Shown in pieces: positions 26,194 to 44,194 of a DNA stretch of 48,022 bases. Positions within the stretch are counted from its first letter, which is position 1, and each line of letters opens with the position of its first letter. This stretch comes from a virus (taxonomy: Duplodnaviria; Caudoviricetes). A program made the position numbers and the translations under genes. A model generated the notes under the pieces. The model ran no database searches and was not told where the DNA came from. It was given only the letters and a program-made list of their open reading frames with translations. The stretch lies in the IMG/VR virus record IMGVR_UViG_3300022917_000015, positions 1-48,022 of that record; one strand, written 5' to 3'.

Positions 26194-26718
26194 ATGACTC
26201 GGTGGCTCGCCCCCCTCGCCCTCGCGCTCGCCGCCGGGTGTCTGCCCGAGTCGGTTGAGGTTGTGGTTCTCACACCTACAACCCCTGAGATCGAGCAAGT
26301 GCTGCTGGCCGCCGATGCGCGATGGGAAGCCGCCGGCGTGGCTCCGGACCGCATCCAAATCGCCCCCGGCGGCGCGCCCGTGCGGCTCGTGCCCGAGCGC
26401 TGCGGCTCGATCCTTCCCGGCAAGTGCGTCGCGGAAACGCGCCGTGTGATGCGCGGCCACGCGTTCCGCGGTGTGCGCTGGATCGAGCTCTATGACCTCG
26501 ATGTAGACGTTGCGGCCCACGAGATGGGACACGCCCTCGGGATCAAGTTCCACATTGATGCGGACGTCGAGAGCTATCCGGACGGTGTCGCTGACTGTGG
26601 GACGGACGGCGCCCACCGCCCGCTGATGTGTTCTAGCGCCGGGCCGGCGATCGTCGCGTCTGACCTCGACGCGGCCTGCTCCGCGGGCGCGTGCGAGCGC
26701 TTCACCCCCGAGCTTTGA
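26194..26718 (+). CDS. Lipoprotein, metzincin/matrixin-like metalloprotease
   Basis: Lipobox LAAGC; HEMGHALGIKFH; Met-turn-like PLM. Confidence 0.75.
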   Translation: MTRWLAPLALALAAGCLPESVEVVVLTPTTPEIEQVLLAADARWEAAGVAPDRIQIAPGGAPVRLVPERCGSILPGKCVAETRRVMRGHAFRGVRWIELYDLDVDVAAHEMGHALGIKFHIDADVESYPDGVADCGTDGAHRPLMCSSAGPAIVASDLDAACSAGACERFTPEL

Positions 26719-27250
26719 CCGATCGCGAGGGCATGCGGTCCGCGCAGGCCGAGCACAGCGCGGGGCGCGCCCAGTAGCAGGGCTCACCGGTGCGGGCGAC
26801 GCATTGCGAGCAATCCATTTCCGTGCAGTCGCACACCGAGCATTGATCGAGCACCGGATCGATCATCCGGAGCAGCTCGCGAGTCTCGCGCGCCCAGTCG
26901 AGCGCGTCGCGTTTGTCGGTCGCTGGATACCGCAAGACGTGCCAGCCGCGCAGCACGGCCGCGCGGTGCTTTTCCAGATCCTTGCGCGCCCCGTCTACCG
27001 TTTGATGCCGCCCGGCCTTGTCCGGATTGCCTCGCGCCCGCCCGTCGATCTCGATCGCGATCTTGTAGGGGGCGATCGCGAAGTCGAAACGCCACTTGCG
27101 CGATGGGTGGAACACAAACTCGGTGTCGAGGACGACGCCCTGGAGCGGCGGCAGCATGAGCCACGCGAGCTCGAACGCTCGTTCCGCTAGGCTGCGCCGG
27201 GCCCGCCCCCGAGGACTCGGCGCCGAACCTTGCCGGCCTTTGCCTCGCAC
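26702..27250 (-). CDS. Vsr/DUF559-like PD-(D/E)xK endonuclease with Cys-rich C-terminus (start uncertain)
   Basis: EFVFHPSRKWRFDFA...IAIEIDG...H...D.EK...GWHVLR. Confidence 0.8.
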   Translation of the reverse strand: MRGKGRQGSAPSPRGRARRSLAERAFELAWLMLPPLQGVVLDTEFVFHPSRKWRFDFAIAPYKIAIEIDGRARGNPDKAGRHQTVDGARKDLEKHRAAVLRGWHVLRYPATDKRDALDWARETRELLRMIDPVLDQCSVCDCTEMDCSQCVARTGEPCYWARPALCSACADRMPSRSVKARG

Positions 27251-27414
27251 TCCGCGAGCGCTCGCTTTCCCGCCGGCGATGCCGCCCATTCGTCGCGCAG
27301 TGCTTGGCACCACCGCGCGAACCGAGTGTCGCGCCTTTCCCAGTCGGACGTCTTGCGCGTGAGCAGGGATCGCACGGCGATTTCCTCGGGCGTCAAATCG
27401 TTGAAATGGATCAT
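27187..27414 (-). CDS. Hypothetical protein
   Basis: ORF 6 nt after the upstream stop in the early chain. Confidence 0.5.
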   Translation of the reverse strand: MIHFNDLTPEEIAVRSLLTRKTSDWERRDTRFARWCQALRDEWAASPAGKRALAECEAKAGKVRRRVLGGGPGAA

Positions 27415-27420
27415 GCGCGG

Positions 27421-27966
27421 TCAAGGATCCACACCTCGGTTGCAGTCTGGGCACGGGCCATGGATCGCGCAAATGCCGTCGCCGCTCGCCGGCGGTGCCG
27501 GCGGTGCCGGCGCGCCCGGTGCGCTCGCCTCGCGGATGGCCTGAATCGTGGCGGCGGCGCTCGAATAGGTGAGCGTCAAGTGATAGATGTTTCGCAGGCG
27601 CGCGCGCAGGTCGCGGCAGCCCTCACACGCGCCGCCGGCGGCGAGCTCGTCGCCGGGCGGCGAGGCCTCGGCGGTAGGCTCGCGGCAGAGTAGCTCGATC
27701 CGTTTGGCGATCCGCGAAACCTCGTCGAGGTCGTAGGGGCGCGGCATCGTGGCGCGCTCGCGCACGAGGTTCGCGATCTCGGTGTCGATCTCCGCACGCG
27801 TCCGAAGGCGGCGCGCCGCCTTGCACACCGCGTCGAGCGCTCGACAAACGCCCGTTCCCATGGGCTTAGGTCCGGGCCCGGGGGTATGCCAATACGTGAC
27901 CGACTCGTGAGCGAGTTCCTCGAGCAGCGCGCGCGGTGTGCGGCTCCAGTCGTAGATCTCGGTCAC
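27421..27966 (-). CDS. Hypothetical protein (Cys-pair motifs)
   Basis: GTGA overlap with the upstream gene. Confidence 0.6.
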   Translation of the reverse strand: MTEIYDWSRTPRALLEELAHESVTYWHTPGPGPKPMGTGVCRALDAVCKAARRLRTRAEIDTEIANLVRERATMPRPYDLDEVSRIAKRIELLCREPTAEASPPGDELAAGGACEGCRDLRARLRNIYHLTLTYSSAAATIQAIREASAPGAPAPPAPPASGDGICAIHGPCPDCNRGVDP

Positions 27967-28601
27967 AGTCGCAACCCTCGCGGCGCGCTCGCTTTGCGCC
28001 CGCGCTTTGCCGTCGCCTTGCGCTTGCCGGCCTTGCGCTTGGCGGCCTTGTCTTTGCGGATCGAGGCGTCGCGTTCAAAGACGATGTTCTCGAGTACGCT
28101 CGGCATCGGATACGCCGCCGGCAACGCCAGGCCGGCGATCGGCGCTGCCCGTGTGTGCTCGACGCGGCACCACCGCTGGACGTCGGCGCGAACCTGTTCG
28201 TGCCACGACTTGACTTGTTTGATCGTCGGAACCATCTCGGGAGGGCGCACGCATGCGATCAAGTATCTGAGGTCGACCGGCTCGAGCAGCGGGCCCTCGC
28301 CGTGCCGCGGCTCGCCCGTCAACGCGCTCCACGATCCCAGCGGCGGCGCCGGCTGGTCGAGCGCGAGCACGCCTTGCCTCGACTCGAATACTTTCCGAGT
28401 TCGGATCTCGCGGCGTATCTCCGCGCTCTCGAGCTCGAGCTTTTTTCTGGCGACGTTGAGCGCGCGGATCTGTTTGCGCTTGTCGCTCACCTCCGCGACG
28501 TTCTCGTCGCACTCCGCTTGCAAAGCGAGGTTCAGAGTTTTGCGTTCCTCGATCTCCTCCGGAGTGAGATCGCGTTCGTACATCCCTTGTCCGTCTGTCA
28601 C
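27963..28601 (-). CDS. Hypothetical coiled-coil protein with basic tail
   Basis: GTGA overlap with the upstream gene. Confidence 0.65.
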   Translation of the reverse strand: MTDGQGMYERDLTPEEIEERKTLNLALQAECDENVAEVSDKRKQIRALNVARKKLELESAEIRREIRTRKVFESRQGVLALDQPAPPLGSWSALTGEPRHGEGPLLEPVDLRYLIACVRPPEMVPTIKQVKSWHEQVRADVQRWCRVEHTRAAPIAGLALPAAYPMPSVLENIVFERDASIRKDKAAKRKAGKRKATAKRGRKASAPRGLRL

Positions 28602-28903
28602 TGAATGGCTCCGATCGGTTGTTGTTCCCGAGCTCGCGCGAGCTCTATCCGCGCGGCCTCGGTGAGTGTCATTGCGCGCGCGCGGCGAGCATGCCGCACG
28701 AGCATCCCCTTTGCCGCGAGGCGCGATAGATGTTCGTGGATCGCCTGCCGGCTATGCGGGCTGAGGCCGAGGGCGATCGTAAATTCCTGGTAGGTGGGAG
28801 GGAACCCGCGCTCGGCGACCGAGCGCTCGATGATCTGCAACATCTCGAGCTGCCGCGGCGACAACGGCGGGACGCCGGCGCGCGCGCCGAGTAGGCCACT
28901 CAT
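28598..28903 (-). CDS. LexA-type DNA-binding domain protein (no peptidase domain)
   Basis: LSPRQLEMLQII...RGFPPTYQE...LGL...IHEHLSRLAAKGML. Confidence 0.85.
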   Translation of the reverse strand: MSGLLGARAGVPPLSPRQLEMLQIIERSVAERGFPPTYQEFTIALGLSPHSRQAIHEHLSRLAAKGMLVRHARRARAMTLTEAARIELARAREQQPIGAIQ

Positions 28904-29037
28904 GGGACAAACTCCCAATCGTTCGAATCGTTGAGGTCGAGATCCTCGACGGCCTCCGCCTCGCCCTCGGGCCCGAGCTCGGCGCGCTCGAGCAGCGCGA
29001 GGGCCGCGCCCTCGCCGGCGGGCTCGTTCTCGGTCAC
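28900..29037 (-). CDS. Small acidic hypothetical protein
   Basis: 4-nt stop/start overlaps on both sides. Confidence 0.5.
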   Translation of the reverse strand: MTENEPAGEGAALALLERAELGPEGEAEAVEDLDLNDSNDWEFVP

Positions 29038-29915
29038 GCGGCGCCCCCGATCGCCGCCTGCCGCTGCTCGGCCGCGGTCATGAGCAGCGCCCCGAGGCGG
29101 GCCCGTAGGTCGTCCGGGCTGAGGCCCGCGGTGCTCGGATCGTCCGCGAGCTCGACGAGCAACGGCGCCACATCGACGCCATGCTCGAGGGCAAATTCGC
29201 GGTGAGCCGGGCACACCTCGACGGGGCGCCCGAGCTCGCTGCCTCGCCCGCGGGGATCTCGGATCGTGCTTGTCAGACTTCGAAGAGATTTTTTAGATGG
29301 GTTGGGGAGGGTTGGGCTGGGATGCGCGCTCGCCCGCGTAGGCGCGGGCACGGGCGCGCCCTCGTGCGGGCGCTCGCCCGCGAGGCCGTCCCGTGGGACC
29401 GTCTCGCCGGTGTCACGCGAAATGTCACACCCGTCACGTGTGACATGTCCCGCGGTGTCACGTGTGACATGTCCCGCGGCGTCCCCGCCGGCGGTGAGCT
29501 CGGCCGATAGGCGCCGGACGGCGGCGAGCTCCAGGCGCTTGCGCTCGCGCTCGTCCTGTTTCCGGAGCCGGGCCTTCTGCCGCCGTAGCTCGATCTCCTC
29601 GGGCGCTGCCGAGTGATCGAGATAGTCGTGCAGTTTCCACCCGCCCTCCGCCGGCTCGACGAGGCCCGTGCCGCGCTGCCCCCCGGGCAGCAGCCGGCCG
29701 CACTCGATCAACGCCTGGAGCGGCTTGCGCCGCGCAGCGCGAGGCGCTCCAGGCAATGCGTCGAGCTCCTCGTCGGGAACAAACCCCTCGGTGTCGGGAT
29801 GTAGCGAGCAATAGCGTTTCATTGCCAGCCACATCGCGATCACGTCGTTGCCGCCGAGCTTCACCGCTCGGCACCACTTCTCGCCCCCGACAAATTCCTC
29901 TTTGATGAGGATCAT
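29034..29915 (-). CDS. Putative replication initiator (N-terminal wHTH, iteron-containing linker)
   Basis: TEGFVP...LIECG...GGWKLHDYLDH...RRQKARLRK pattern of phage replisome organisers; GGAGG RBS; internal DNA repeats. Confidence 0.7.
   Translation of the reverse strand: MILIKEEFVGGEKWCRAVKLGGNDVIAMWLAMKRYCSLHPDTEGFVPDEELDALPGAPRAARRKPLQALIECGRLLPGGQRGTGLVEPAEGGWKLHDYLDHSAAPEEIELRRQKARLRKQDERERKRLELAAVRRLSAELTAGGDAAGHVTRDTAGHVTRDGCDISRDTGETVPRDGLAGERPHEGAPVPAPTRASAHPSPTLPNPSKKSLRSLTSTIRDPRGRGSELGRPVEVCPAHREFALEHGVDVAPLLVELADDPSTAGLSPDDLRARLGALLMTAAEQRQAAIGGAA
29409..29479. repeat. Iteron-like repeats (gtcacgtgtgacatgtcccgcgg x2 plus TGTCAC partial copies); candidate replication origin
   Basis: Copies at 29433-29455 and 29457-29479, inside the initiator gene. 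Confidence 0.7.
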
Positions 29916-29968
29916 TTCGTGCTGCCTCCTTTGCCCGTTGCCTTCCCTTGCACGGGCGACTCGAATCG

Positions 29969-30325
29969 TTAGCCCGTTGCGGTGATGCGTTCCGGCAAGT
30001 GCTCGGCGCAGAACGCGATCGCGTAGCGCGTGGCTTTCTCGCGCCCGAGCTCGGCCTTCATCGGACCGAGGAGCGGATCGCGTTTCATGCGATCAATGAT
30101 CTTCCCGAGGTTCGCGAGGTCGATTGAATCGAGCTGCACTTGCATGCTCTGCCGCGGGCGCTCCGGAGGCGGGGGATCGACGCAAATGGGTTCGGATGGT
30201 TCGGCTGGCTTGGTTCGTTTGCTCACTGTCGTTCTGCTCCTTACGAGCCGCGCGATGGTACGCGCGGCCGCTTTCAATTCACGCCGATCCATGCGCACGA
30301 GCGCCCGGTGCTCGCCCGCGCTCAC
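29969..30325 (-). CDS. Hypothetical protein (possible RHH-like C-terminus)
   Basis: GTGA overlap. Confidence 0.55.
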   Translation of the reverse strand: MSAGEHRALVRMDRRELKAAARTIARLVRSRTTVSKRTKPAEPSEPICVDPPPPERPRQSMQVQLDSIDLANLGKIIDRMKRDPLLGPMKAELGREKATRYAIAFCAEHLPERITATG

Positions 30326-30486
30326 TCGGCCTCTCGTTCTCGGGGCGCCGGCGCCGGCGGCGTGGGATCGGCGAGCCCGAGCTTGCCGAGGTGCCACTCG
30401 CATACGCGCTCGCCCGAGGGCATGGGCACGTGTAGCGTCCTGCATTTGCAGCGCTCGCAATAGTCGACCGATGCCACGGTGATCAC
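30322..30486 (-). CDS. Small Cys/His zinc-ribbon-like protein
   Basis: CERCK...H...C; overlaps on both sides. Confidence 0.5.
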   Translation of the reverse strand: MITVASVDYCERCKCRTLHVPMPSGERVCEWHLGKLGLADPTPPAPAPREREAE

Positions 30487-30884
30487 AACGGCGCCTCGCC
30501 TTGCCATTCGCGGAGCGCCGCCGTTTCCGCAGGGTCGTCCACTGGAGGCGGGCAACCCCACGCGCAACGCCAATCGCTCTCGCCGCTATCGCTGCCGTCG
30601 CTCAGTAGCCGGCACGGGGCGCGCCGGCGGCAGAGCTCGCACTCCCCGAGGTCGTCCGCGACATGCTCGAACACCAGGGCGGCGACGGCCTCGGGCAGGC
30701 GCGCGAGCAAATGCGCGACCTCGGGGGGCGGCAGGCCGTGCCGTGTCCACTCCCGCGCCGGGCCTCGCGGCAGCCCCTCGAGCTCGCGCAACGCCCAGGC
30801 CTTGATCAGCTCGTCGGCGCTCATCGCGCGTAGTCGAGCCGGCAACGCCCGGCAGGCCCCGATCAGTTCCTCGTCGCTCATCAT
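30483..30884 (-). CDS. Hypothetical protein with CxxC/CxxGC motifs
   Basis: ATGA overlap. Confidence 0.55.
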   Translation of the reverse strand: MMSDEELIGACRALPARLRAMSADELIKAWALRELEGLPRGPAREWTRHGLPPPEVAHLLARLPEAVAALVFEHVADDLGECELCRRRAPCRLLSDGSDSGESDWRCAWGCPPPVDDPAETAALREWQGEAPL

Positions 30885-31384
30885 GCCCCCTCCGGAGGCG
30901 CCGCCGGCGGCGAGGCCTCGAACCATTCGGGCCGCTCGACGCGCAAGATCTCGATCGTCTCGTCGGGCGAGAGCAGCACGCTATTTGTCACCTCGACGAG
31001 CCGCACGACCGCCTCGGCGACGAGCGCGCGAACCGCGGCCTCGAACGCGGGGCGGCGTTTGGCGAGCACCTCGACGGTAAACATTGCGCGGTCGCCGTCC
31101 GGATCGCCGAGGCCGCTGTCATCGTCGAGCGCCTCGCGAGCTCGGTCGATGGCGCGATCGGTCGCCTCCTCGATGTGCTCCTCGGTGATCGTCGCGCGCC
31201 GAAAGCCCTCGCACGTGATCGCCCCCATCTCGCGGATCACCTCATCGGTGGGGCGCCCCGGCTCGAGGTGACTTTCGACGATGGCCTCGAGGGCGCTGAT
31301 CGGATCGAGGTGTGTGAGGCGCTCGGCATCCGAGCAATCCCAGAATTCCGCGGCGATCCCATTGAACTTGTCTCGTGCCGTCAC
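30881..31384 (-). CDS. Hypothetical acidic protein
   Basis: GGAG RBS; GTGA overlap. Confidence 0.6.
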   Translation of the reverse strand: MTARDKFNGIAAEFWDCSDAERLTHLDPISALEAIVESHLEPGRPTDEVIREMGAITCEGFRRATITEEHIEEATDRAIDRAREALDDDSGLGDPDGDRAMFTVEVLAKRRPAFEAAVRALVAEAVVRLVEVTNSVLLSPDETIEILRVERPEWFEASPPAAPPEGA

Positions 31385-31899
31385 TTGAGTTTCTCCGGTT
31401 TGAATGTGTGTTGCCATTGCCTGCCGCCGGGCCATGTGACGGGCCGCAGGTTGCGAGGTAAGTAGAGCGGGTGCTCCGGGTTCCCTTTGCCGGTGAGGCG
31501 CAGGACGTGGATCGTAACGCCCGCCTGCCGTAGCAGCGTGCGCAGCGCGAACGCATCACGCTCACGAATGTTGTTGCCCCACGCGGCGACGAACAACGCC
31601 GCGGCGCTCGCGCAACGGACGACCGTCGCGTGATTGCCGGGCCCGATCGGTTCGTCCGCGCCGAGCATCGCCTTTGGATCGGTACTGCGCCAAGCGTACG
31701 CATTGACTTTCACCAGGCGCCCGAAACCCCAATCGCGCGCGAACCCGAGCTCGCGCCGGATCGTCGGATCGTCTTTCGTCGCGTCGGCGGTGCTCGGATT
31801 GAGGCCGCAGAAAACGACGGTCGGCCGGGTCGGGTCCCATTCCCGCCAAAGGGCGAAGCGATACAGGCCGCAGGGCGAGAACGTCGCGCCGTTGATCAT
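31381..31899 (-). CDS. DUF1643 family protein
   Basis: ATFSPCGLYRFALWREWD...GLNPSTADATKDDPTIRR...AAWG...HPLY. Confidence 0.9.
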   Translation of the reverse strand: MINGATFSPCGLYRFALWREWDPTRPTVVFCGLNPSTADATKDDPTIRRELGFARDWGFGRLVKVNAYAWRSTDPKAMLGADEPIGPGNHATVVRCASAAALFVAAWGNNIRERDAFALRTLLRQAGVTIHVLRLTGKGNPEHPLYLPRNLRPVTWPGGRQWQHTFKPEKLK

Positions 31900-32387
31900 T
31901 GGTGCGCCTCCGCGCTGCCGAGGCCGCGCAGCGCATGGATCGGGCAGGGGTTGCCGTGCTGCGCCCAGAATTCGCACCCTCGGCACGGCTCATCGGTGGG
32001 GTTTGTCCAGCGATAGCCGTCCGGCTCGACGTGTGTTGTCTCGCTCGTCTTGCACTCGCACTCGACGCGATGCGCGGGATCGACGGGGCGAAAGTAGTGG
32101 CGGGCGTGCCCGGGGTGATGGTTGTCCTCTTCCCATCCGACGATCCCAAACGCTCGCTGCGCGCGCGCGAGCTCGGCTGGCTTGGGGCGCTTGCCGAACC
32201 GCGAAACGGAGACATACCATTGCGGCCCGACGCCGCTGCCGTCTGGTAGGTCGGCATTGATCAACGATGAGACGACGCTAAGGCGCCCGTCGGTCCACAT
32301 ACTCTGAGAGATCACGCCCGAGGTCCAAGCGCTCGACGGTACGCGCATCGTGCGCCAGGCGTGCCCGCGTGGCTGCGGTTCTCTCAT
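31896..32387 (-). CDS. Hypothetical phage protein (W.VSVS..GKRP motif; Cys-rich tail)
   Basis: ATGA overlaps. Confidence 0.6.
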   Translation of the reverse strand: MREPQPRGHAWRTMRVPSSAWTSGVISQSMWTDGRLSVVSSLINADLPDGSGVGPQWYVSVSRFGKRPKPAELARAQRAFGIVGWEEDNHHPGHARHYFRPVDPAHRVECECKTSETTHVEPDGYRWTNPTDEPCRGCEFWAQHGNPCPIHALRGLGSAEAHQ

Positions 32388-32482
32388 TTGCGAACCCCGC
32401 AGCGGGCGCAGCGAGCCGGCGCATAGAGGATCGAAACCCACCACTTGTGGAAGCCGAGCCGGCAAAGCAGTCGACCGATCAT
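32384..32482 (-). CDS. DUF1660-like micro-protein
   Basis: LLCRLGFHKW...CARCG; ATGA overlaps on both sides. Confidence 0.6.
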   Translation of the reverse strand: MIGRLLCRLGFHKWWVSILYAPARCARCGVRK

Positions 32483-32886
32483 GCTTGCCTCGCTTTCTGC
32501 TCCGCGATCGCGGCCTTCAACCCCGCCCCACGCTCGGCGGGATAGTTGAGCCACTTGAAAAACCGACTGTCGCTCAGGTGCGCGATCCCCCACCGCTCGA
32601 TCCCTTTGCTCTTGGCAAAGAGCGATTGCTTGACGGTGTCCGGCGAGTCACCCCACGACGGCAGCAATAGCATCCCATCGCAACGCGAGAGCAGCAGCGT
32701 ACAACCCTCGCGCCAGAAAGCATCGGGCACCACTCCAGACAGGACGCGCCCGAGCGAGTGAGGCACGACCGGCATGCCCCCGAGCTTGGCGACGCGCATC
32801 GCGACGGCCTCGGCATGATGCGCGTCGCAAGCGATATCCCAGGCGTGCGTGCCGCTGAACTTGCCGGCGATGAAAACCAGTTTCAC
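32479..32886 (-). CDS. DUF4406/nucleoside deoxyribosyltransferase-like Rossmann protein
   Basis: VFIAGKFSG...PH...LSRCDGMLLLPSWGDS. Confidence 0.7.
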   Translation of the reverse strand: MKLVFIAGKFSGTHAWDIACDAHHAEAVAMRVAKLGGMPVVPHSLGRVLSGVVPDAFWREGCTLLLSRCDGMLLLPSWGDSPDTVKQSLFAKSKGIERWGIAHLSDSRFFKWLNYPAERGAGLKAAIAEQKARQA

Positions 32887-33512
32887 GGCGTCGCCTCGGC
32901 GCGCTCGGCGAGCGCCTGGCGATACGCATCATTTATCCGGGCCATGGTGGCCGAGTCCCCGCCCTTGTCCGGATGATGTTCTGCCGCGAGCGTGCGGTAG
33001 ATCCCGCGAATGTAACGGGCATCCGCGTCGCGAGACACCCCGAGCACCTCCCACCATGCCTGGGCGCCGGCCGTCTCGGGCAGGCGCGCGAACCCCTCGA
33101 ACGCGCGATCCTGGATCTCGCCGGCGCCGCAGCGCTTGAGTCCGCGGATATAGTCGATCGCCATGCCGAGGGCGCGGACGTTCTCGCGGACCGTGTACCA
33201 GTGATCACACGGGATCTCCTTCGGAGCGGCCTTGCCCGTCTTTGGATCGCGCATCGTCCAATACACGGCGACGCCCGGATCAGATATCCGCTGCTCGGCA
33301 TGGTCGCCGCGATACATCGTGCCGTCGCGACGGATCGGCACGTTGCTCGAGACGATGATATCGCGGCCGCCGAGCTGCCGAATGCTACCGAGCAGCTCCT
33401 CGAGCGCGACGTCGGTCGTCACCTTGTAGGGGCTGCTCGCGCGATGTTTCGTGCGCGCCCACCCGGAGGGCCAGCACAGCGGGAACGCTTTGATCGCTTC
33501 GTTGTCTTTCAT
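32883..33512 (-). CDS. Phage J-domain (DnaJ-like) protein
   Basis: PLCWPSGWART, SSNVP.RRDG, DPGVAVYW; C-terminal WWEVLGV...HHPDKGG...INDAY. Confidence 0.88.
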   Translation of the reverse strand: MKDNEAIKAFPLCWPSGWARTKHRASSPYKVTTDVALEELLGSIRQLGGRDIIVSSNVPIRRDGTMYRGDHAEQRISDPGVAVYWTMRDPKTGKAAPKEIPCDHWYTVRENVRALGMAIDYIRGLKRCGAGEIQDRAFEGFARLPETAGAQAWWEVLGVSRDADARYIRGIYRTLAAEHHPDKGGDSATMARINDAYRQALAERAEATP

Positions 33513-33769
33513 AGATCCCCGTCGTCCTCGCTGATGTAGTCGTAGGGCAGCGCCGCCGGCGCCGGCGGCGAGCTATCGGCGATGCCGCATTCGCAGGCGG
33601 ACACGCCGCACCGATCGGTGTGCTGGCTGTGGCCGCAGGCGCCGCAGCTCGGCCCGAGCAAGCTCGGATCGTCGTCGATGAAAAATACCGCGCCGATCGC
33701 GGCGATGGGTATCGCGACGAGGGCCCCGAGGGCCGCGCGTCGCTGTAGAAACTTCCCTGTTTCTGTCAT
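33509..33769 (-). CDS. Small TM protein with Cys/His cluster
   Basis: GGAG RBS; TM segment, then C.CGH...H...C....C.C. Confidence 0.55.
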   Translation of the reverse strand: MTETGKFLQRRAALGALVAIPIAAIGAVFFIDDDPSLLGPSCGACGHSQHTDRCGVSACECGIADSSPPAPAALPYDYISEDDGDL

Positions 33770-33809
33770 GTCTGCTCCGTTCAAACCGGCGAGAGCTCGC
33801 CCCTTCGGA

Positions 33810-36789: not shown

Positions 36790-36917
36790 GGCACCCACCC
36801 GATCGAGACGTGCCGGCGCAAGTAAGAATAGCCGCGCTCGCATCCGATGCCGAGCAACGCGCCGCCCAGGGCGACGAGCGCGAGGAACGCGAGCCACTGT
36901 CGACCGCTTCCGAACAT
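36786..36917 (-). CDS. 43-aa membrane or lipoprotein-like peptide (not in ORF track)
   Basis: MFGSGRQWLAFLALVALGGALLGIGCERG...; TGATG and ATGA overlaps. Confidence 0.55.
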   Translation of the reverse strand: MFGSGRQWLAFLALVALGGALLGIGCERGYSYLRRHVSIGWVP

Positions 36918-37144
36918 CACGCGCGCCCCCGAGTAACGGCCTTGCGAGTCGCGATGGCGATCGAGCGCTCGAGGCTATCGGCGCACTCGTTCAAAATGCG
37001 GGCGTACGCGGAGGCCCGTACTGCCCCCTCCGGGAATTTGTGACCGCCCGCCGGCACGTCACCCTCGATCGCGTTGTGCCGCGCCGCGACGGCCTCCCAT
37101 TCGCGCGCCACGCGCCGCCAGCGTCTCACCAGATCCTTGCTCAT
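36917..37144 (-). CDS. Hypothetical protein
   Basis: ATGA overlap. Confidence 0.55.
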   Translation of the reverse strand: MSKDLVRRWRRVAREWEAVAARHNAIEGDVPAGGHKFPEGAVRASAYARILNECADSLERSIAIATRKAVTRGRA

Positions 37145-37491
37145 CGGCGCACCTTGATCGCTTGCCGTTTGCGTTTGCCCCGCGCCGCCGGCGAGCTCGC
37201 CGCGGGCAGCATGGCCACGATGAAGGCCGCGGCGTTCTGCGCCTCGGCCGCGGCCGCCTCGAGCGCGGCCTCGCGCGTCGCGCCGACACCGGGGTAACGA
37301 TCGGCACCGATGCGGAGGCGGGCGTGCCAAGTGGATCGCGTTTGGCGCACTTTCCAGTCGGCGGTCCGCTCGTCCTCACCGATCGAGATCGGGGCGTTCG
37401 AATAGAACCCGTCCGGCTCGCGCCGAGGCGGAGGATCGAACGCGATGCCTCGCCAGACAAACCCCGGTGGGGGGCGCTTGCTCACGGTCAC
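37141..37491 (-). CDS. Hypothetical protein
   Basis: GTGA overlap. Confidence 0.55.
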   Translation of the reverse strand: MTVSKRPPPGFVWRGIAFDPPPRREPDGFYSNAPISIGEDERTADWKVRQTRSTWHARLRIGADRYPGVGATREAALEAAAAEAQNAAAFIVAMLPAASSPAARGKRKRQAIKVRR

Positions 37492-37676
37492 CGCTGCCCC
37501 CATGGATCGACGTAGGGCGCCGGCTCGAACCCCGCGGCGCGGATCTCGGCGACCTCGGCGGGCGTGAGCCGGAACCCGTAGCCGCCGGCCTCGACGAATT
37601 TGCGACGCGCCTTTGCGACCCACGCGCGCATGCCGTCGCCGAGCAGCTCGACTTGCGCGGTACCCTCGGCGCTCAC
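37488..37676 (-). CDS. Hypothetical protein
   Basis: GTGA overlap. Confidence 0.5.
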   Translation of the reverse strand: MSAEGTAQVELLGDGMRAWVAKARRKFVEAGGYGFRLTPAEVAEIRAAGFEPAPYVDPWGQR

Positions 37677-37837
37677 GAGTCGGCCTCGCTCATCGCCGCG
37701 ATGGCAATGCAGACAGGCCAGACGACGGCACACGCCGCGATGCTGAGCAGGGGCATGCGAGGCCTCGAACCGGCGAGCAGCACGCCCACGTAACAGGCGG
37801 CGCCCCCGAGCCACGCGGCGAGAGCCACGTCGCTCAC
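37673..37837 (-). CDS. Small two-TM protein
   Basis: Two hydrophobic segments; GTGA overlaps. Confidence 0.55.
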   Translation of the reverse strand: MSDVALAAWLGGAACYVGVLLAGSRPRMPLLSIAACAVVWPVCIAIAAMSEADS

Positions 37838-37929
37838 CACAGCCCCCAGGCGTGCCCCGCGCAGGCCATGCAAGCGAGCCACGCGAGGACGGTGAGGCCG
37901 CGCACCGCGACCCATGCGGCGGCCCTCAC
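37834..37929 (-). CDS. 31-aa TM peptide coupled to the integrase stop (not in ORF track)
   Basis: MRAAAWVAVRGLTVLAWLACMACAGHAWGLW; its GTG overlaps the integrase TGA. Confidence 0.5.
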   Translation of the reverse strand: MRAAAWVAVRGLTVLAWLACMACAGHAWGLW

Positions 37930-40307
37930 GAGGCCCCCTTGCGCTGCGCCCGGACGACCTCGAGCCGGACCGGCGCCGGTGGGGCAGCTCGGGCGGCCTC
38001 CGCGAGGCGGGCGACCTCCGCGGCTCGAGCGGCCTCCGCGAGGCGGGCGACCTCCGCATCGATAAGCGGTTCGAGCGCGCGCAGCGCCGTCCAGTTGCGC
38101 TTATCGTAGTAGGCCTGCCCTGCCGCCTGGAGGAGCTCCAGCGGGGTGGCCGGCGTGGTCACACCCGGGTGTGACCCTCGGTCGCTTCCGGTCGCTTCCG
38201 GTACAGGCTCACCCCCCGGATTTGCCGGGTTTTGTTTCCTCCGGTCGCCAAAGGCTGGATTTAGGTTCCAGCACCTCACGGTATGGGAGTTCGACCCTCC
38301 CCTCGCGCACTCAGCATCAAACATGCTCGATTTCTCATTCTCCGGAGCCGTCGAGCACTCGCCCGCGAGGGCATGGTCACACTCGGGGTCACACTCGTTC
38401 CGGGCGTTCAGTGGTTTCGAGTCGCGGTGGACTAGATCCGCGCCGCCGTCGTCCGCGTAGTCCACCCCGTCGCGCTGCCCCGCGCTGCCCTGCTGCTGCG
38501 CCGCAAACCGGGCGGCGAGCAACGCGCCCGGGGCGTAGCCCTCGACGATCTGGACGTACGCGCCGGCGGGCGTTGCCTCGCCGTTAGCCGGTCCGCGGGG
38601 CGGGTGTAACGGCGAGGTAACAGGATCCAGCCAGTCGCCCTCCGGCTCGCCCGCGGCGTTGCAGCTCACGCACGCCCAGCCGGACCGCTTGCCCGCCTGG
38701 ACGCGTGCGAGCGGGCGCTCGCACTCCGGGCACTGCGGCGCGGGTAGACGCGCGCCGGGGAGGTCAGCTCCCGGCGTGCTCGATGCTGGCCCCTGACCGG
38801 GCCCGTCGTTGTCAATTGCAGTCGCTTGCAACGGCTCGCCCCCGCCGAGCGGGTTGCAGGAACGGCCGCCGGTTGCAGGAACCGACGTCGGTTGCGCGCC
38901 GACCTCGGTTGTCGGTTCGCCGGCGGCGAGCTGCCGAGGCTCGGGCCCGGCGGCGAGCACCGCGGCGTCGAGCTCGCCCGCGACGTCGAGGCCCATTGCC
39001 TGATCGAGCGGCAGGTAGGGCGCGAGCCCGAGGTGCTCTATCGTCGCCTTGCTCCGGTTGTAGCGCGCGATCATCGTGTTCGACTCGTGCCCCGTGTGCT
39101 GGGCGATCGTTTCGTTGTCGATGCCAGCGAGCTTGCACCACGAAACGAACGTCGATCGGAGGTCGTGCTCGCGGAGGCGGCGCAGGCGCCCGGCGGTGAA
39201 CAGCAGCCGCTCGCGTTCCGTTCCCGAGATCTCGATGTGCCGTCGCAAATCGTGGGCGGCCTTTTTGTAGTTCGTGGCGGTGAGCCACACGAACGGACCG
39301 GCGAGCTCGGGGCGCAGGCGCTTGAACGCCTCGAGTACTTCGCCCGTGCCGGGCATGAGAACGAACATGAGCGCGCGGCCCGTCTTCGTGGCGGGCACGT
39401 TGAGAACCCACCGAGCCGGCATCCCATGCATGGGCGGCAGTAACTCGAGGTGCTCCCATCGGATGCGGAACGCCTCGCCGAGGCGCAGGCCCTCACGGAT
39501 GATGAATCCCCAAAGCACGCGATAGTCGATCGAGATCTCGCCGCAGCGCATGAGCCGCGCGTATTCCTCCGGATAGAGGAACGGAAACTCGGGCGCCTCG
39601 CCTTTGGCGAGGATCGGCAGCTTGCACACCGCCGAGAGCGGCCACGCGGGAATGATTCGCAGCTCGACGCCGATCTTGACGACGCGCCTGCATACTTGCG
39701 CGTAGGCCCGAAACGTCGAGTCTGTTTTGCAGTGCGCCCGCGCCGGTCGCATCGCGCGCCAATAGTCGTCATCATTGAACGTCGCGAGTGGCACGTTCTC
39801 GATGAACTTGCACAGATACTCGACGCGCGGCTCGTCGGTTGCCTCGGCGGATTTTTTGCCATAGCCCGCGTTTGGATAGAGGCGGGCGAGTTCCTGAGAA
39901 CACCACGCCCGCGCGAGCTGGCCCCACGTGACAAAGCGCGACGAGGCCTCGCTCGTTTTCTCGCGCGGGCGCGACATGACGACGTTTGCCGCAGCGATCG
40001 CAAAGTTGAATTTCTCCTCGTCGCCGGCGACGGCGGCCGCCTTGCGCATCAGATACGCGGCCTGCGCGCCGCGGCCGACCTTTACAAGCGCCTTGCGCAT
40101 CGCGGTGATATCGGCCAGGCGCGCGACCGCGAGCGCCCGGCGCGCCTGCGGCGGCCCGTACGACTCATCGATCGCGAGCTTCAAACGAAACTGTCGACGA
40201 TTGCCTCGCTTGCCCGTCGTGGGATCCTTGGGGTCCTCGAACCCCGCGCTGATCATCTGAGAGAACCCGCCCGCGACGGGTAGCAAACCACTTCGTACTT
40301 TGCCCAT
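37926..40307 (-). CDS. int: Tyrosine integrase (~793 aa) with a long C-terminal extension containing attP
   Basis: Catalytic R (GLRLGE), K (TKTG), HDLR, GH, Y (ARYN); ATG 40307 lies 1 nt after the upstream stop. Confidence 0.92.
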   Translation of the reverse strand: MGKVRSGLLPVAGGFSQMISAGFEDPKDPTTGKRGNRRQFRLKLAIDESYGPPQARRALAVARLADITAMRKALVKVGRGAQAAYLMRKAAAVAGDEEKFNFAIAAANVVMSRPREKTSEASSRFVTWGQLARAWCSQELARLYPNAGYGKKSAEATDEPRVEYLCKFIENVPLATFNDDDYWRAMRPARAHCKTDSTFRAYAQVCRRVVKIGVELRIIPAWPLSAVCKLPILAKGEAPEFPFLYPEEYARLMRCGEISIDYRVLWGFIIREGLRLGEAFRIRWEHLELLPPMHGMPARWVLNVPATKTGRALMFVLMPGTGEVLEAFKRLRPELAGPFVWLTATNYKKAAHDLRRHIEISGTERERLLFTAGRLRRLREHDLRSTFVSWCKLAGIDNETIAQHTGHESNTMIARYNRSKATIEHLGLAPYLPLDQAMGLDVAGELDAAVLAAGPEPRQLAAGEPTTEVGAQPTSVPATGGRSCNPLGGGEPLQATAIDNDGPGQGPASSTPGADLPGARLPAPQCPECERPLARVQAGKRSGWACVSCNAAGEPEGDWLDPVTSPLHPPRGPANGEATPAGAYVQIVEGYAPGALLAARFAAQQQGSAGQRDGVDYADDGGADLVHRDSKPLNARNECDPECDHALAGECSTAPENEKSSMFDAECARGGSNSHTVRCWNLNPAFGDRRKQNPANPGGEPVPEATGSDRGSHPGVTTPATPLELLQAAGQAYYDKRNWTALRALEPLIDAEVARLAEAARAAEVARLAEAARAAPPAPVRLEVVRAQRKGAS
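37987..38057 (-). repeat. 36-bp tandem duplication (AEVARLAEAARA x2) in the integrase tail
   Basis: Units start at 37987 and 38023. Confidence 0.9.
38157..38397. promoter_or_regulatory. attP arm-type sites GGTCACAC (inverted pair 38157-38176; direct pair 38375-38385 and 38387-38397) plus cggtcgcttc x2 at 38179-38198
   Basis: Repeats flank the tRNA-derived core on both sides. Confidence 0.75.
38254..38310 (+). other. attP: attP core: 3' half of tRNA-Leu(UAG)
   Basis: Anticodon arm ctgga-tttaggt-tccag, long variable arm, T-arm gggag-ttcgacc-ctccc, acceptor 3' strand ctcgcgc-a; no D-arm or 5' acceptor strand. Confidence 0.9.
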
Positions 40308-40308
40308 C

Positions 40309-40692
40309 TCAGAGACTCGACTTTCTTTGCGCGAGGCGATGCTGCTGGAGCCGCAGGGTAACGAGCAGCTCCCATCGCGCGGAGGCCAACGTTTGCGGGC
40401 AGTCTCTGTGCTGCGCGGGCAGCGCCAGGAACCCGGCACGAGCACCGCCGAGATCTTCAGGCCAATTGACGTTGCTGCTCACGCCGCAGCGGTGACAATG
40501 AAACCAGATCTCGACCCGCTCGTCGCCCTCGCGATCGGGCTCGGGCGTTAGCCAATAGAGGCCCACGCGCCACGGCTCCGCGCTCGGCGCGAGTCGGTCG
40601 ATCTCGGCGCGCAGCGCCGCGGCCTCGCTCGTCTTGCGCTGCTCATCGGCGAGGGCGGCCCTCGTCGCCTCGGTGCTCCAAACGGACGGCAT
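40309..40692 (-). CDS. Hypothetical protein
   Basis: TAATG overlap. Confidence 0.55.
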   Translation of the reverse strand: MPSVWSTEATRAALADEQRKTSEAAALRAEIDRLAPSAEPWRVGLYWLTPEPDREGDERVEIWFHCHRCGVSSNVNWPEDLGGARAGFLALPAQHRDCPQTLASARWELLVTLRLQQHRLAQRKSSL

Positions 40693-40931
40693 TAGGGCGC
40701 CGCCTTTGTTCGATAGTCCGCGACCTGGACAGGGGCGCCGTCCGGGTACATTTCGTCCAGCTTGGCTATCAGGTCGGCATCCGTCTCGGCAAACCAAAGG
40801 CAGATGTGCGGGCCCGGCGCCTCGGGCTCTTTCGAGATGAAGCAACACCGCAGGCCCGCGAGCAACCCCTCGATCTCGCGGCGCGTGATGCCGAGGATCA
40901 GCGCCCCTTTATTGTCGACACCGCGGATCAC
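40692..40931 (-). CDS. Hypothetical protein
   Basis: TAGTG overlap; GGGAG RBS. Confidence 0.6.
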   Translation of the reverse strand: MIRGVDNKGALILGITRREIEGLLAGLRCCFISKEPEAPGPHICLWFAETDADLIAKLDEMYPDGAPVQVADYRTKAAP

Positions 40932-41212
40932 TAGAGCACTCCCATTTGCCGGTCATGGATCCGACGGGCCGTGCGCATCGCCGCCCAGGAAATCAGTTGG
41001 CAAAGGACGCTCAGGAACATGAGCACCCCACCCGAGGCGCGATAGTCGAGCGCGATCGCGCCCGCGCCGAGCAGGATCGTCACGAGGGCGAGTTTTCGCC
41101 AGCCGCGCTCGCTGCGATAGATCGCGTCGAGCGCGGCCTCGGTCGCGTTGCGCTGCTCCACGGAGCTCACGATCGGCGGCCTCGCCTCGCGCGGGGGGTA
41201 ACCCGGGCCCAT
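40931..41212 (-). CDS. Two-TM hypothetical protein
   Basis: Hydrophobic segments; abuts the upstream stop. Confidence 0.55.
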   Translation of the reverse strand: MGPGYPPREARPPIVSSVEQRNATEAALDAIYRSERGWRKLALVTILLGAGAIALDYRASGGVLMFLSVLCQLISWAAMRTARRIHDRQMGVL

Positions 41213-41431
41213 TTAGAGCACCATCCGGGTAGGCCAGAAACCCGCGGGGCGGGGTTGCGGCGTTTCCTGGAGCTCGCGCTCGAATTCGCTCGAGTCGTCG
41301 GCGCGCTCGACGGCGACGCGAGCAATGAACGCCGTTAGCTTGACGCCCGCGGCCGTCGTGCCTTCCCACACACGGCAAAGCACGCCGTTGCACTCGACGA
41401 CCTGCCGCGTGCTTTCGAGGGTGATCTTCAT
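41213..41431 (-). CDS. Hypothetical phage protein
   Basis: MKITLEST...RVWEGTT..G; GGAGG RBS. Confidence 0.65.
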   Translation of the reverse strand: MKITLESTRQVVECNGVLCRVWEGTTAAGVKLTAFIARVAVERADDSSEFERELQETPQPRPAGFWPTRMVL

Positions 41432-41715
41432 GACAACATCTCCTCCGCCAACCGGGCGCAATTCTCCTCGAGCATGCCGAGCTCGCACGCCACACGCGCC
41501 GGGCTCGACGGGTGCTCGAGCAGCACGCGGGCCTTGACGACGTCTCGCCCGAAACCCTTGCGGATGCCGAGTTGCCACACGCACGCGGCCGTACGCAACG
41601 CGACGTAACAGGGAGCTCGGCCGAGGCGCGTGAGCTGCCGCGTCTCGAGGCCCGGCGCCCACGGTACCGTGTGAAACTTCGCGCTGGACGCGACACCCTT
41701 TGCCGCACGCATCAC
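41428..41715 (-). CDS. Hypothetical protein
   Basis: 4-nt overlaps on both sides. Confidence 0.5.
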   Translation of the reverse strand: MMRAAKGVASSAKFHTVPWAPGLETRQLTRLGRAPCYVALRTAACVWQLGIRKGFGRDVVKARVLLEHPSSPARVACELGMLEENCARLAEEMLS

Positions 41716-42137
41716 GTTTTCACCGCGCGCAAACCGCTCATCAGCTCGCGTTCGAATTCGCCGAGCTCGCGGTCGCGCGACTTCGGACCTTTGGAGGGCG
41801 GCGGCCCTTTGTCACCGCCGGCGGGGCTCGCCGCCGCAGCGTCGCCCTTGCCGCGTCCGGGCCTGCCCGCGAGTTCCTCGCGAATGGCCTCGCGAGTCAG
41901 CCAATAGTTACGCCCCGAGTGCCCGGCGCCGCCTTCATCGTTGGCGAGGCGGCGCTTGACCGCGTCGCGGTGCCGGCGCGCGCCGAGCTCGCTATCATGC
42001 TGGTTGACCATGCGAGGCCGCCGGCGTTCGAGACGCTCGGCGAGGCACTCCGCGAGCGCCTCGATGTAGGGTCCGAACGCTTGTAGCATGGCGCTGTTTG
42101 GGCCTGCGCCGGGCCCACTATCGTCCATAGTCATCAC
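41712..42137 (-). CDS. Possible excisionase-like DNA-binding protein
   Basis: Wing-like GHSGRNYWLTREAIREEL; upstream of int in the same operon. Confidence 0.4.
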   Translation of the reverse strand: MMTMDDSGPGAGPNSAMLQAFGPYIEALAECLAERLERRRPRMVNQHDSELGARRHRDAVKRRLANDEGGAGHSGRNYWLTREAIREELAGRPGRGKGDAAAASPAGGDKGPPPSKGPKSRDRELGEFERELMSGLRAVKT

Positions 42138-42709
42138 CCCGGTTGCTCCGATCGTTTTTCTGCTTTGCCGGATCGCGCCCGGCGAATGGTACCTGCTCGC
42201 ACGTGCCGCTTGAGTGTGGCGATGCCGATCGCCGTCACGCCAAACACCGAGTCGCCCCCCGAGAGCGACGAGGGCTTGCGCGTCTCGCGCATGAGGCCGC
42301 GAGCGATCAGCCCTTCGATCGTCGCCCAGTCGGCATGCCCCTCGCCGGCGCAAAAGTGGTTGCGATAGAGCGGCCACTTCGATCGCCAGCCGGTCGTGTG
42401 GATCATCAGCTCGAGCTCGCCCGCGCTCACCTCGACGGTCGCTGCCGCGGCCGCGGCGACCTCGGCGAGCTCGGCGCTCGGCGGCGCACCCTCGGCACCG
42501 AGAATCGGCGCGCTCGATTGTCCGAACGCCGCGCGCATGCGATCGCAATTGCGGCAGCGGTCCGCGAGCTCGACGGGCCCGAGATCGGCAACGATCGTGA
42601 ACCGGGCGAGGTCCTGCGCGTGCAATCGAGGCGCGCGGCCCGGCGAGCCGATGCCGCACACCGTTCGGCGACCGACGTCGCCCCATGCCCATTCATGCAC
42701 GCGCAACAT
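42134..42709 (-). CDS. Hypothetical protein (C-terminal YRNHFCAG winged-helix-like domain)
   Basis: AAGG RBS; in chain. Confidence 0.6.
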   Translation of the reverse strand: MLRVHEWAWGDVGRRTVCGIGSPGRAPRLHAQDLARFTIVADLGPVELADRCRNCDRMRAAFGQSSAPILGAEGAPPSAELAEVAAAAAATVEVSAGELELMIHTTGWRSKWPLYRNHFCAGEGHADWATIEGLIARGLMRETRKPSSLSGGDSVFGVTAIGIATLKRHVRAGTIRRARSGKAEKRSEQPG

Positions 42710-42712
42710 CCT

Positions 42713-43441
42713 TCAGCCGTTCCAGTGGTGCACGCGCGAGAACGACGGCAGGGCGCTGCTCTCGAGCGGCGCATACAGGTGCACGCTCCGGAGGCCCGCA
42801 TCAAACGCCTCGGCCTTGCGCGGCAAGATTTGGATCGCCCGAATGTCACCGAGAAACACCTCGCGACACCACCCGAGCTCCGCCAAGCTCGGCGGCGCCT
42901 GACGCCCCGTCGCCGCCAAGTGCGCCCACAGCTCGCCTTGCCAGACTTCGATCTCTATTACGACCGTGATCGGGCTACCGCCGAGACGCACGCGATACCA
43001 CTTGCTCGCCGCATCATCGACGGTGCGCTCGACGCCCGGGGGCAGCGCCGCCGGCGTGAGCCGCGCGAGCCAACGCTCGGCCTCGACGTCGCGTGCGGCA
43101 TCGCGCCCATGCCCAGCGCGACGGCGACGTACGGCAGAGCTTGCGAAAGCGCTTTCGCTAGCGCTTACCGAGGCAGTTGTTCGCGAGCCTGATCTAGCGT
43201 CGAAACCAGCGCGATCCGCCGCTCGCGAATCCGTCGCAATGTCCGATGCTTGCGGTAAGTTGTTCGCTTTATGCTTGGGGGGGGGGTTACACCTCGTGTA
43301 ACACTGCTCGATCGCCCCCGGGCGCAATGAGTGCACGTCGAGCTCGGCATCGCGCATGCGCCGACGCTCTCCCGACGGCTTCGCTGCCGCCCCGTTGCTT
43401 ACATCACCCACGCCCACCACCGAGTGCTTGCTTCCCACCAC
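42713..43441 (-). CDS. First gene of the early operon; conserved-looking C-terminal domain, C10 tract in the N-terminal part
   Basis: GGGGAGG RBS before GTG 43441; WAHLAA...PSLAEL...F.G...AIQILP...HLY. Confidence 0.6.
   Translation of the reverse strand: MVGSKHSVVGVGDVSNGAAAKPSGERRRMRDAELDVHSLRPGAIEQCYTRCNPPPKHKANNLPQASDIATDSRAADRAGFDARSGSRTTASVSASESAFASSAVRRRRAGHGRDAARDVEAERWLARLTPAALPPGVERTVDDAASKWYRVRLGGSPITVVIEIEVWQGELWAHLAATGRQAPPSLAELGWCREVFLGDIRAIQILPRKAEAFDAGLRSVHLYAPLESSALPSFSRVHHWNG
43286..43302. promoter_or_regulatory. Operator-like palindrome gttacac-ctc-gtgtaac
   Basis: Perfect 7-bp arms next to the G10 tract. Confidence 0.45.
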
Positions 43442-43574
43442 GACTGACCTCCCCGAAAAAACGTTTTACCTATATTCCCACTGAACAACTGGCACCATAC
43501 CAAATCGACACATGTCTCGCGTTTGCCCCAATGGGGTGATGCGTGCATGTGGCATAGCGGAGTACCCGCGCAAC

Positions 43575-44188: not shown

Positions 44189-44194
44189 GATCTC

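What the first reader, a model, noticed from the sequence alone, without database searches (positions are those of the whole stretch)
26702..43502. Integration decapitates the early operon: candidate integration-controlled lysis-lysogeny switch without a CI repressor
Seen: from 43441 to 26702 about 35 minus-strand genes form a chain, nearly all joined by 1-4-nt stop/start overlaps or tiny gaps (largest ~40-55 nt). int is in the middle, starting 1 nt after the upstream stop, with its own stop overlapping the next GTG (37929). attP lies inside int. The only clear promoter-like region I see is at the top (extended -10 TGgTATGGT at ~43494-43502). Recombination at 38254-38310 would put int and the upstream genes at one prophage end and the ~11 kb of downstream genes (replication initiator, sigma factor, LexA-type HTH, J-domain protein, nuclease) at the other end with no phage promoter. 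No HTH+S24 CI-type repressor is visible. Known analogues: Mx8 (attP in int) and mycobacteriophage BPs (attP in the repressor gene). Inference: genome topology itself gates replication-gene expression.
Basis: partly seen in the sequence, partly recalled or inferred. Interest (0 to 1): 0.85.

Follow-up and report, generated by a model that had tools for sequence, protein, structure and literature searches.

The report
Phage attP cuts replication off promoter
In this soil phage the predicted chromosome-insertion site lies inside the integrase gene, midway along one tightly packed run of early genes, so insertion would cut the replication gene off from its likely promoter; this likely works as an excise-before-you-replicate safety catch beside ordinary repressors, and phage Mx8 has the same layout.

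Summary
The anatomy is real. The window is a whole circular 47.9-kb phage. 38 minus-strand ORFs run from 43441 to 26702, with 32 of 37 junctions overlapping or abutting. A tRNA-Leu 3′ half flanked by arm-type repeats sits inside the 793-aa integrase. Five relatives keep the layout. In all six genomes the variable 246–387-codon tail stays open through the att core (read in two frames), ends in a conserved peptide and overlaps the next start codon, so mRNA likely crosses attP. The upstream extended −10 is conserved in 6 of 6. No conserved promoter or terminator was found between core and rep. Integration would therefore truncate Int and detach 29 genes, rep included: a likely excision-before-replication interlock. 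The repressor-free claim is weak: an XRE gene with a palindromic operator lies between divergent promoters in 5 of 6, and a ribbon-helix-helix-like gene precedes rep. No prophage junction, host or RNA data were found. Mx8 shares the topology, Tn916 uses the mechanism, and this scan noted the idea on three other genomes. It is a new variant, testable in Mx8.

The parts
44199..44235 (.). Two copies of palindrome TACGC-N5-GCGTA between divergent promoters (candidate XRE operators)
   Evidence: 44199 exact, 44221 one mismatch. Exact copy at the orthologous place in 5 of 5 XRE-bearing genomes, second copy in 3 of 5; none at this place in L011, whose slot lacks XRE. Hits with at most 1 mismatch average 2.1 per shuffled window, so position, not count, is the evidence. 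Binding is inferred.
44252..44260 (+). Extended -10-like element of the rightward promoter (PR)
   Evidence: TGnTATG invariant in 5 aligned genomes; function inferred
43895..44188 (-). BrnT-family ribonuclease toxin (accessory)
   Evidence: PF04365 E 1e-21; in 1 of 5 relatives
43575..43898 (-). XRE-family HTH protein without S24 domain; antitoxin-like, repressor candidate for its own promoter and PR
   Evidence: PF01381, PF15731, phrog_2328; in 4 of 4 near-complete relatives at 70-86%, three of them without the toxin; not in the L011 slot
43494..43512 (-). Leftward early promoter PL: TGTGTCG box plus extended -10 TGGTATGGT
   Evidence: Invariant in 5 of 5 aligned; -10 kept in G002 with a changed box; best score of the promoter matrix, which was trained on it. 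Activity inferred.
40309..43441 (-). Eight coupled ORFs above int, including 42137-41712, a likely excisionase-type HTH
   Evidence: 42137-41712 in 6 of 6; language-model neighbours with HTH_17 or DUF3853 at 0.89, a lead only
37926..40307 (-). Tyrosine integrase, 793 aa: catalytic domain, 357-aa variable tail crossing attP, conserved C-terminal ~60 aa
   Evidence: PF00589 aa 243-420; R275, K308, H381, R384, H407, Y416 invariant in A1; tail statistics
38376..38392 (.). attP arm on the int side: two GTCAC/GTGAC direct repeats 12 bp apart
   Evidence: Same pair at the same distance in 6 of 6
38254..38310 (+). attP core region: 3' half of a tRNA-Leu(TAG); 13-bp invariant anticodon-arm core at 38257-38269
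   Evidence: Core invariant in 6 of 6, T-stem changes keep pairing; tRNA identity read by eye; no host match
38158..38175 (.). attP arm on the downstream side: inverted GTCAC...GTGAC pair
   Evidence: 6 of 6
26702..37929 (-). 29 coupled ORFs that integration would detach from PL (sigma-like, J-domain, DUF1643, RHH-like, rep, LexA-type HTH, nuclease-like)
29969..30226 (-). Ribbon-helix-helix-like 85-aa protein just upstream of rep
   Evidence: In 6 of 6. Strand-helix-loop-helix pattern; two distant homologues hit RHH_1 at E 0.002 and 0.05 among 23 proteins scanned; model pLDDT 83.5 with two helices; fold searches not significant
29916..29968 (-). 53-nt gap before rep holding a GC-rich hairpin and ribosome-binding site, no U-tract
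   Evidence: Hairpin folds in 6 of 6 with different sequences
29034..29915 (-). Replication initiator with internal iteron-like repeats
   Evidence: phrog_2447 E 7e-16; repeats in 6 of 6

Best explanation
An Mx8-type integrase gene carries the predicted attP inside its tail and sits in the middle of one tightly coupled early gene run, so integration would both shorten the integrase and detach the replication gene from the run's likely promoter, which likely makes replication wait for excision. On the circle, one transcript from PL (43502) is inferred to run through the xis-like gene, int and attP into 29 further genes; translation of the open tail would carry ribosomes across attP and hand them to the next gene. 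Crossover in the tRNA-Leu anticodon loop would join the host tRNA 5' half to the int side, replace the last ~113 residues of Int, and leave rep at the other prophage end behind host DNA. This is an ordering interlock, not the whole lysis-lysogeny decision: PL (which would still drive xis and truncated int) and the rightward genes would still need repression. The XRE protein is the best candidate at PR; the repressor of PL is unidentified.
For: Shown in sequence: attP anatomy in 6 of 6 genomes. int tail open for 246-387 codons in 6 of 6, while each of the five other frames has stops; chance of an open frame in shuffled tails 0.0015-0.012 each, genomes related so not independent. Core read in two different frames (3 and 3) yet ending in the same peptide, whose differences fall mostly on third positions (125/132/248). 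int stop overlaps a start codon in 6 of 6, although no homologue of the window's next gene was found in the five relatives. int start within 2 nt of an upstream stop in 6 of 6. Automatic chains coupled at 30/36, 21/30, 23/28, 21/26, 26/30 and 18/23 junctions. PL -10 in 6 of 6. Between core and rep, 6 matrix hits at score 9 or more over six genomes against 7.2 in shuffles, all far below PL; only one position recurs, inside the sigma-like gene of two close genomes. No terminator-like site on the coding strand of the int tail and none shared further down. The gap before rep is a GC hairpin, not promoter-like. Precedent: the Mx8 review says attP lies in int and integration gives a new 3' end with altered activity (PMC6070905); Tn916 separates replication genes from their promoter on integration (PMC9956884).
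Against: No integrated copy, junction or host tRNA was found, so integration itself is inferred. The promoter search sees only PL/PR-like elements, built from 10 related sites; activator- or phage-sigma-dependent promoters would be missed, and the sigma70 scan missed PL itself. rep is 8.4 kb from the core and about 13.6 kb from PL. An RHH-like gene with a strong ribosome-binding site directly above rep resembles self-promoted copG-rep modules (recalled), and low-GC dips lie near its start in 3 of 6. The open tail is also explained by Int needing its C-terminal peptide, without any role in gating. The Mx8 chain has gaps of 706, 169 and 57 nt that could hold promoters.
Confidence: 0.58

Rival explanations
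1. attP-in-int serves only to change the integrase (Mx8 model). The downstream genes, or at least the RHH-rep module, have their own repressor- or activator-controlled promoter, so topology does not gate replication.
For: RHH-like gene directly above rep in 6 of 6; a sigma-like gene in 3 of 6; a recurring 25-41-nt gap after the 34115-33810 gene in 4 of 6 automatic chains; gaps in the Mx8 chain; selection on the C-terminal peptide alone could keep the tail open.
Against: No conserved promoter-like motif at these gaps. A coupled start bridges to the RHH gene in 5 of the 6 printed regions by eye. The int stop is coupled to a start in 6 of 6 despite gene turnover.
Confidence: 0.27
2. One reading: topology alone is the switch and no repressor is needed. 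The lysogen is quiet because the lytic genes are cut off, and excision is limited by the weak truncated integrase.
For: No HTH+S24 protein among 54 ORFs. The XRE gene is antitoxin-like and absent from its slot in L011, where two unrelated ORFs and other repeats replace it. No XRE palindrome at PL. The other regulator candidates (RHH-like, LexA-type) lie on the detached side.
Against: XRE is kept at 70-86% in 4 of 4 near-complete relatives, three without the toxin, with a palindrome next to the rightward promoter. The rightward and late genes are not cut by integration. L011 is a partial contig. Mx8, with the same topology, has an annotated primary repressor and a described immunity gene.
Confidence: 0.1
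3. The att site is vestigial; the phage is lytic or plasmid-like and never integrates.
For: No junction in four runs of contigs, none among viral records, no integrase relative in the genome collection.
Against: Catalytic residues, core and four arm sites are conserved in all genomes compared while the tail between them changes freely; the tRNA piece varies in ways that keep its pairing.
Confidence: 0.05

Closest known systems
Myxococcus phage Mx8 (NC_003085; imm ... uoi-int/attP ... p19 initiator, p20 DnaC-like)
   Same: attP inside the int tail, 121 codons before the stop there and 99-113 here; GTGAC arm-like repeats (11 bp apart in Mx8, 12 here); int in a co-directional run between the head of the early region and the replication initiator; a LexA-like HTH near rep by eye.
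   Different: Integrases are alike only in the catalytic domain (hhalign 82%, E 1e-5). Target is tRNA-Leu here, tRNA-Asp in Mx8 (recalled). The tail here is longer (246-387 aa) and the chain has no gap over 53 nt, against 706 and 169 nt in Mx8. Mx8's repressor Imm heads the run; here no Imm-like gene is there.
Tn916 (integrative conjugative element)
   Same: Integration separates replication and transfer genes from their promoter, and excision restores them (PMC9956884, passages read).
   Different: A conjugative element, not a phage; shown by experiment; its attachment site is not inside a translated frame (recalled).
Mycobacteriophage BPs integration-dependent immunity
   Same: Integration edits a protein's C-terminus; divergent promoters with an operator overlapping PR (PMC3694055, passages read).
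   Different: There attP is in the repressor, the repressor and Int carry degradation tags, and there is no xis. Here attP is in int, Int has no such ending, arm sites are present and an xis-like gene is likely.
SSV-type archaeal integrases; lambda sib retroregulation
   Same: int interrupted by att (PMC5861418, passage read); integration changes what lies downstream on an early transcript (lambda, recalled).
   Different: SSV int is split within the gene body (recalled); in lambda the effect falls on int itself, not on replication.

Membership tests
Mx8-type attP-in-int module | attP lies inside the int coding sequence | tested here: met
   Core at codon 680 of 793, arms on both sides; 6 of 6
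Mx8-type attP-in-int module | Catalytic domain stays whole; only a C-terminal segment lies beyond the core | tested here: met
   Catalytic domain ends near aa 436; 99-113 aa follow the core
Mx8-type attP-in-int module | Integration into a tRNA gene gives a new int 3' end with altered activity | tested here: inconclusive
   tRNA 3' half read by eye; no junction or host found; activity cannot be tested
Mx8-type attP-in-int module | HTH excisionase-like gene upstream of int | tested here: inconclusive
   42137-41712 conserved 6 of 6; no Pfam hit; language-model lead 0.89
Mx8 immunity region | Imm-type repressor at the head of the early run | tested here: not met
   XRE is unlike Imm. The RHH-like protein resembles Imm only weakly (hhalign E 0.0025, 12%) and lies below attP.
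Tn916-type promoter separation | Replication genes lack their own promoter | tested here: inconclusive
   No conserved PL-like element; other promoter types not covered
Tn916-type promoter separation | Transcripts read through the attachment site only on the circle | not testable with these tools
   Indirect only: open tail and coupled stop
BPs integration-dependent immunity | attP within the repressor gene | tested here: not met
   attP is in int, 5.3 kb from the XRE gene
BPs integration-dependent immunity | [quoted passage not shown] | tested here: not met
   By eye, Int ends in basic and glycine-rich residues in 6 of 6, not AA
Lambda-type CI switch | Repressor with HTH plus S24 self-cleavage domain | tested here: not met
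   No S24 hit among 54 ORFs scanned
Lambda-type CI switch | Repressor gene and operators between divergent promoters | tested here: inconclusive
   XRE plus palindrome in 5 of 6; binding untested; none at PL
Ribbon-helix-helix family (30226-29969) | Strand-helix-helix dimer fold | tested here: inconclusive

The most novel reading that the evidence does not exclude
Mx8-like phages share an undescribed phage switch in which the integrase tail is a translated bridge over attP. On the circle it carries expression to rep and to the phage's own early repressor (the RHH-like protein). Integration removes both, so the prophage is held by a truncated, excision-poor integrase and by topology rather than by an immunity repressor of PL.
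Probability: 0.15. Interest if true: 0.8.

Novelty: new variant of a known kind. Interest (0 to 1): 0.45.

Why it matters
Temperate phages must not replicate while integrated; the textbook solution is repression. If the interlock is real, these phages add a physical guarantee of excision before replication, so far described for Tn916 and not found for a phage in my seven literature searches. The same layout is in Mx8, a cultured and genetically tractable phage, so the idea can be tested at once. The six-genome comparison adds evidence that translation across attP is under selection. Interest is moderate because both ingredients are known and the gating is unproven.

Tried and rejected
Host and prophage search: the integrase found no relative in the genome collection (58 candidate stretches, 0 confirmed); the exact 54-nt core found nothing there; two degenerate att patterns in viral records returned only the four known relatives. 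Contigs of five runs were laid on the att region (X1-X4; X1-X3 and X5, X5 laying nothing): no junction; one low-depth piece in X2 is another tRNA-like sequence with 4 mismatches and 2 gaps. No RNA holder listed. L010 is identical to the window over 13,906 nt and L015 is the other end of the same contig; neither was counted. L012-L014 are short fragments ending inside int and L040 begins below int; not counted. Rep binding the attP arms: rejected, because rep repeats are GTGAC in 4 of 6 and GGGAC in 2 of 6 while the arms stay GTGAC. Separate translation of the C-terminal peptide from the arm GTG: no conserved ribosome-binding site by eye, and it would not explain the open tail. A UVR-like domain in that peptide: no Pfam support. 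Core read in three frames: my error, corrected to two. XRE as Mx8 Imm homologue: no. XRE operator at PL: none within 2 mismatches in the five XRE genomes. RHH-like protein: first model pLDDT 63 with no fold hit; PDB sequence search blank; 0 of 26 members hit RHH_1; dimer prediction gave no verdict; the wide structural search could not be run. Literature searches gave no paper on operon splitting by attP in a phage. The primary Mx8 papers (1996-2003) were not seen and may discuss it.
Full report
What the window is. The window is the entire record. Its first and last 127 bases are identical, so it is a circular phage genome of 47,895 bp, 67% GC. Structural genes run on the + strand to about 26.7 kb; the early region is on the minus strand. 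The best holders among sequencing runs are soil and leaf-litter metagenomes, two of which may be its source. The host is not identified; a myxobacterium is a guess from the likeness to Mx8.

The chain. By hand I ORFs from 43441 to 26702: eight above int, int, and 29 below. 32 of 37 junctions are within -4..+3 nt and the largest gap is 53 nt, before rep. One junction depends on the start chosen for the gene ending at 29969 (-4 nt from GTG 30325, 95 nt from GTG 30226). Because hand-picked starts favour overlaps, I also built chains from codon scores alone: 30 of 36 junctions were coupled, against about 14% expected per junction. rep, the J-domain gene and the LexA-type HTH are confirmed by family hits. 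The sigma factor is only weakly supported.

attP. On the + strand 38254-38310 reads as the anticodon arm (TAG), variable arm, T-arm and acceptor strand of a tRNA-Leu; this is by eye, as ARAGORN and Rfam report nothing. Four viral records (L006-L009) and one metagenome contig (L011) encode relatives of the integrase with the whole region. All six genomes share a 13-bp core in the anticodon arm, a direct GTGAC pair about 120-130 bp to the int side and an inverted pair about 90-100 bp to the other side. The T-stem differs between genomes but stays paired. This is the anatomy of a working attP. I found no integrated copy.

Evidence that expression crosses attP. The catalytic domain ends near residue 436. 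The tail after it is 246-387 codons and poorly alignable, yet open in 6 of 6; every other frame has stops, and shuffled tails are open 0.15-1.2% of the time. The core is translated in one frame in three genomes and another in the other three, and all end in the same peptide, whose differences fall mostly at third positions. The int stop overlaps a start codon in 6 of 6, while the window's next gene has no detected homologue in the relatives. So full-length Int is under selection, and the gene after it is placed to be translated from the same mRNA. This shows read-through is likely; it does not show it is the only source of downstream mRNA.

Promoters and terminators. A matrix built from five PL and five PR sites gave 6 hits at score 9 or more between core and rep over six genomes, against 7.2 in shuffles; the best scored 12.5 against 19-21 for PL, and only one position recurred, inside the sigma-like gene of two close genomes. 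The generic sigma70 scan found nothing in 26-45.5 kb, not even PL, so it is uninformative. No terminator-like site lies on the coding strand of the int tail, and the few further down are not shared. The gap before rep is a GC hairpin with no U-tract in 6 of 6. Promoters of other types remain possible.

Repressors. No HTH+S24 protein was found among 54 ORFs. But an XRE gene lies just above PL. It is in all four near-complete relatives at 70-86% identity, in three without the BrnT toxin. A palindrome TACGC-N5-GCGTA overlaps its likely promoter in 5 of 5 such genomes; a second copy overlapping the predicted -35 of the rightward promoter is present in 3 of 5. Against it: the protein is antitoxin-like, L011 has two unrelated ORFs and other repeats in that slot, near-matches are common by chance (mean 2.1 per shuffled window), and there is no copy at PL. 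A second candidate, an 85-aa protein just above rep in 6 of 6, has a ribbon-helix-helix-like pattern. Its support is weak: 2 of 23 proteins scanned hit RHH_1 at E 0.002 and 0.05, 0 of 26 close members did, fold searches were not significant, and likeness to Mx8 Imm is E 0.0025 at 12% probability. It lies on the detached side, so it could serve immunity only with an internal promoter.

Mechanism. Shown: the order of parts, their conservation, the open tail and the coupling. Inferred: PL drives one long transcript; crossover in the anticodon loop regenerates the host tRNA on the int side, replaces about 113 C-terminal residues, and leaves 11.5 kb with rep at the far end. From Mx8: the recombinant integrase behaves differently (PMC6070905). 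My reading is an interlock that forces excision before replication. It cannot be the whole decision, because the xis-like gene and truncated int stay under PL, and the rightward and late genes are untouched. I give this 0.58, an internal promoter 0.27, the repressor-free form 0.10 and a vestigial site 0.05.

How widespread. A rep profile returned 14 loci, 10 beyond the four relatives. A small integrase profile hit 3 of these 10, each upstream of rep on the same strand (L027, L043, L048); a fourth was seen by eye (L045). L043 has a tRNA-like piece in its int tail and a stop overlapping the next start. L045 has a full tRNA-Leu(CAG) antisense right after the int stop. The other six gave no hit; the profile is insensitive and some loci are short. 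The Mx8 record shows imm, a co-directional run, uoi-int, then p13-p18, the initiator and a DnaC-like gene, with larger gaps than here.

What is known. Papers seen, all as passages around search terms: PMC6070905, PMC9956884, PMC3694055, PMC11610982, bioRxiv 10.64898/2026.09.14.751636 (no mention of attP) and PMC5861418. [quoted passage not shown] Seven searches gave no paper describing it for a phage, but the primary Mx8 papers were not seen, and no supplements were read. Lambda sib, copG-rep modules and the Mx8 target tRNA are recalled. Three unchecked notes of this scan report the same idea on other genomes; I had reached my reading before seeing them, and they are not independent support.

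Verdict. The element is an Mx8-type attP-in-int module and likely works like Tn916's promoter separation. It fails the tests for BPs-type immunity and for a lambda-type CI. New variant of a known kind; interest 0.45.

Noticed in passing
window 43575-43595: The XRE protein ends in AA in 4 of 5 genomes (GA in the fifth), like a ClpXP degradation tag (motif recalled).
   Followed up: no
window 44188-44200: The -10-like hexamer lies 6-8 nt before the start codon of the cassette in 5 of 5 XRE genomes, suggesting a nearly leaderless mRNA.
   Followed up: partly
window 29410-29470 and 43502-43520: Iteron-like repeats in rep keep GACA in 6 of 6, and TGTC half-sites lie 8-10 nt above the PL -10 in 6 of 6; Rep or the RHH-like protein might repress PL. 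A 4-nt match, weak.
   Followed up: partly
window 33838-33890 and 45039-45091: Paralogous genes 34115-33810 and 44820-45170 on opposite strands, one in each early run, both present in 6 of 6.
   Followed up: no
window about 45584-45795, minus strand: Short ORFs opposing the rightward run, one hydrophobic; a similar one in L009, other content in the remaining relatives.
   Followed up: no
window 45886-46467 and 47001-47333: Conserved in 4 of 4 near-complete relatives (70-86%) before the late genes, no family hit; late-activator-like and HTH-like by eye.
   Followed up: no
window 1828-2841: A two-HTH protein gene between the terminase genes, shared with only 1 of 4 near-complete relatives.
   Followed up: no
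window 38426-38950: Co-occurring variants in two runs change the int tail by net -60, -78 and +3 nt, all multiples of three.
   Followed up: no
L045 3873-3957; L043 1-798; L027 6265-7587: Distant phages with the same rep family also have int, with att-like features, upstream of rep on the same strand.
   Followed up: partly
L011 3738-4460: The slot between the divergent promoters holds two unrelated ORFs and a 13-nt direct repeat in place of XRE and its palindrome.
   Followed up: partly
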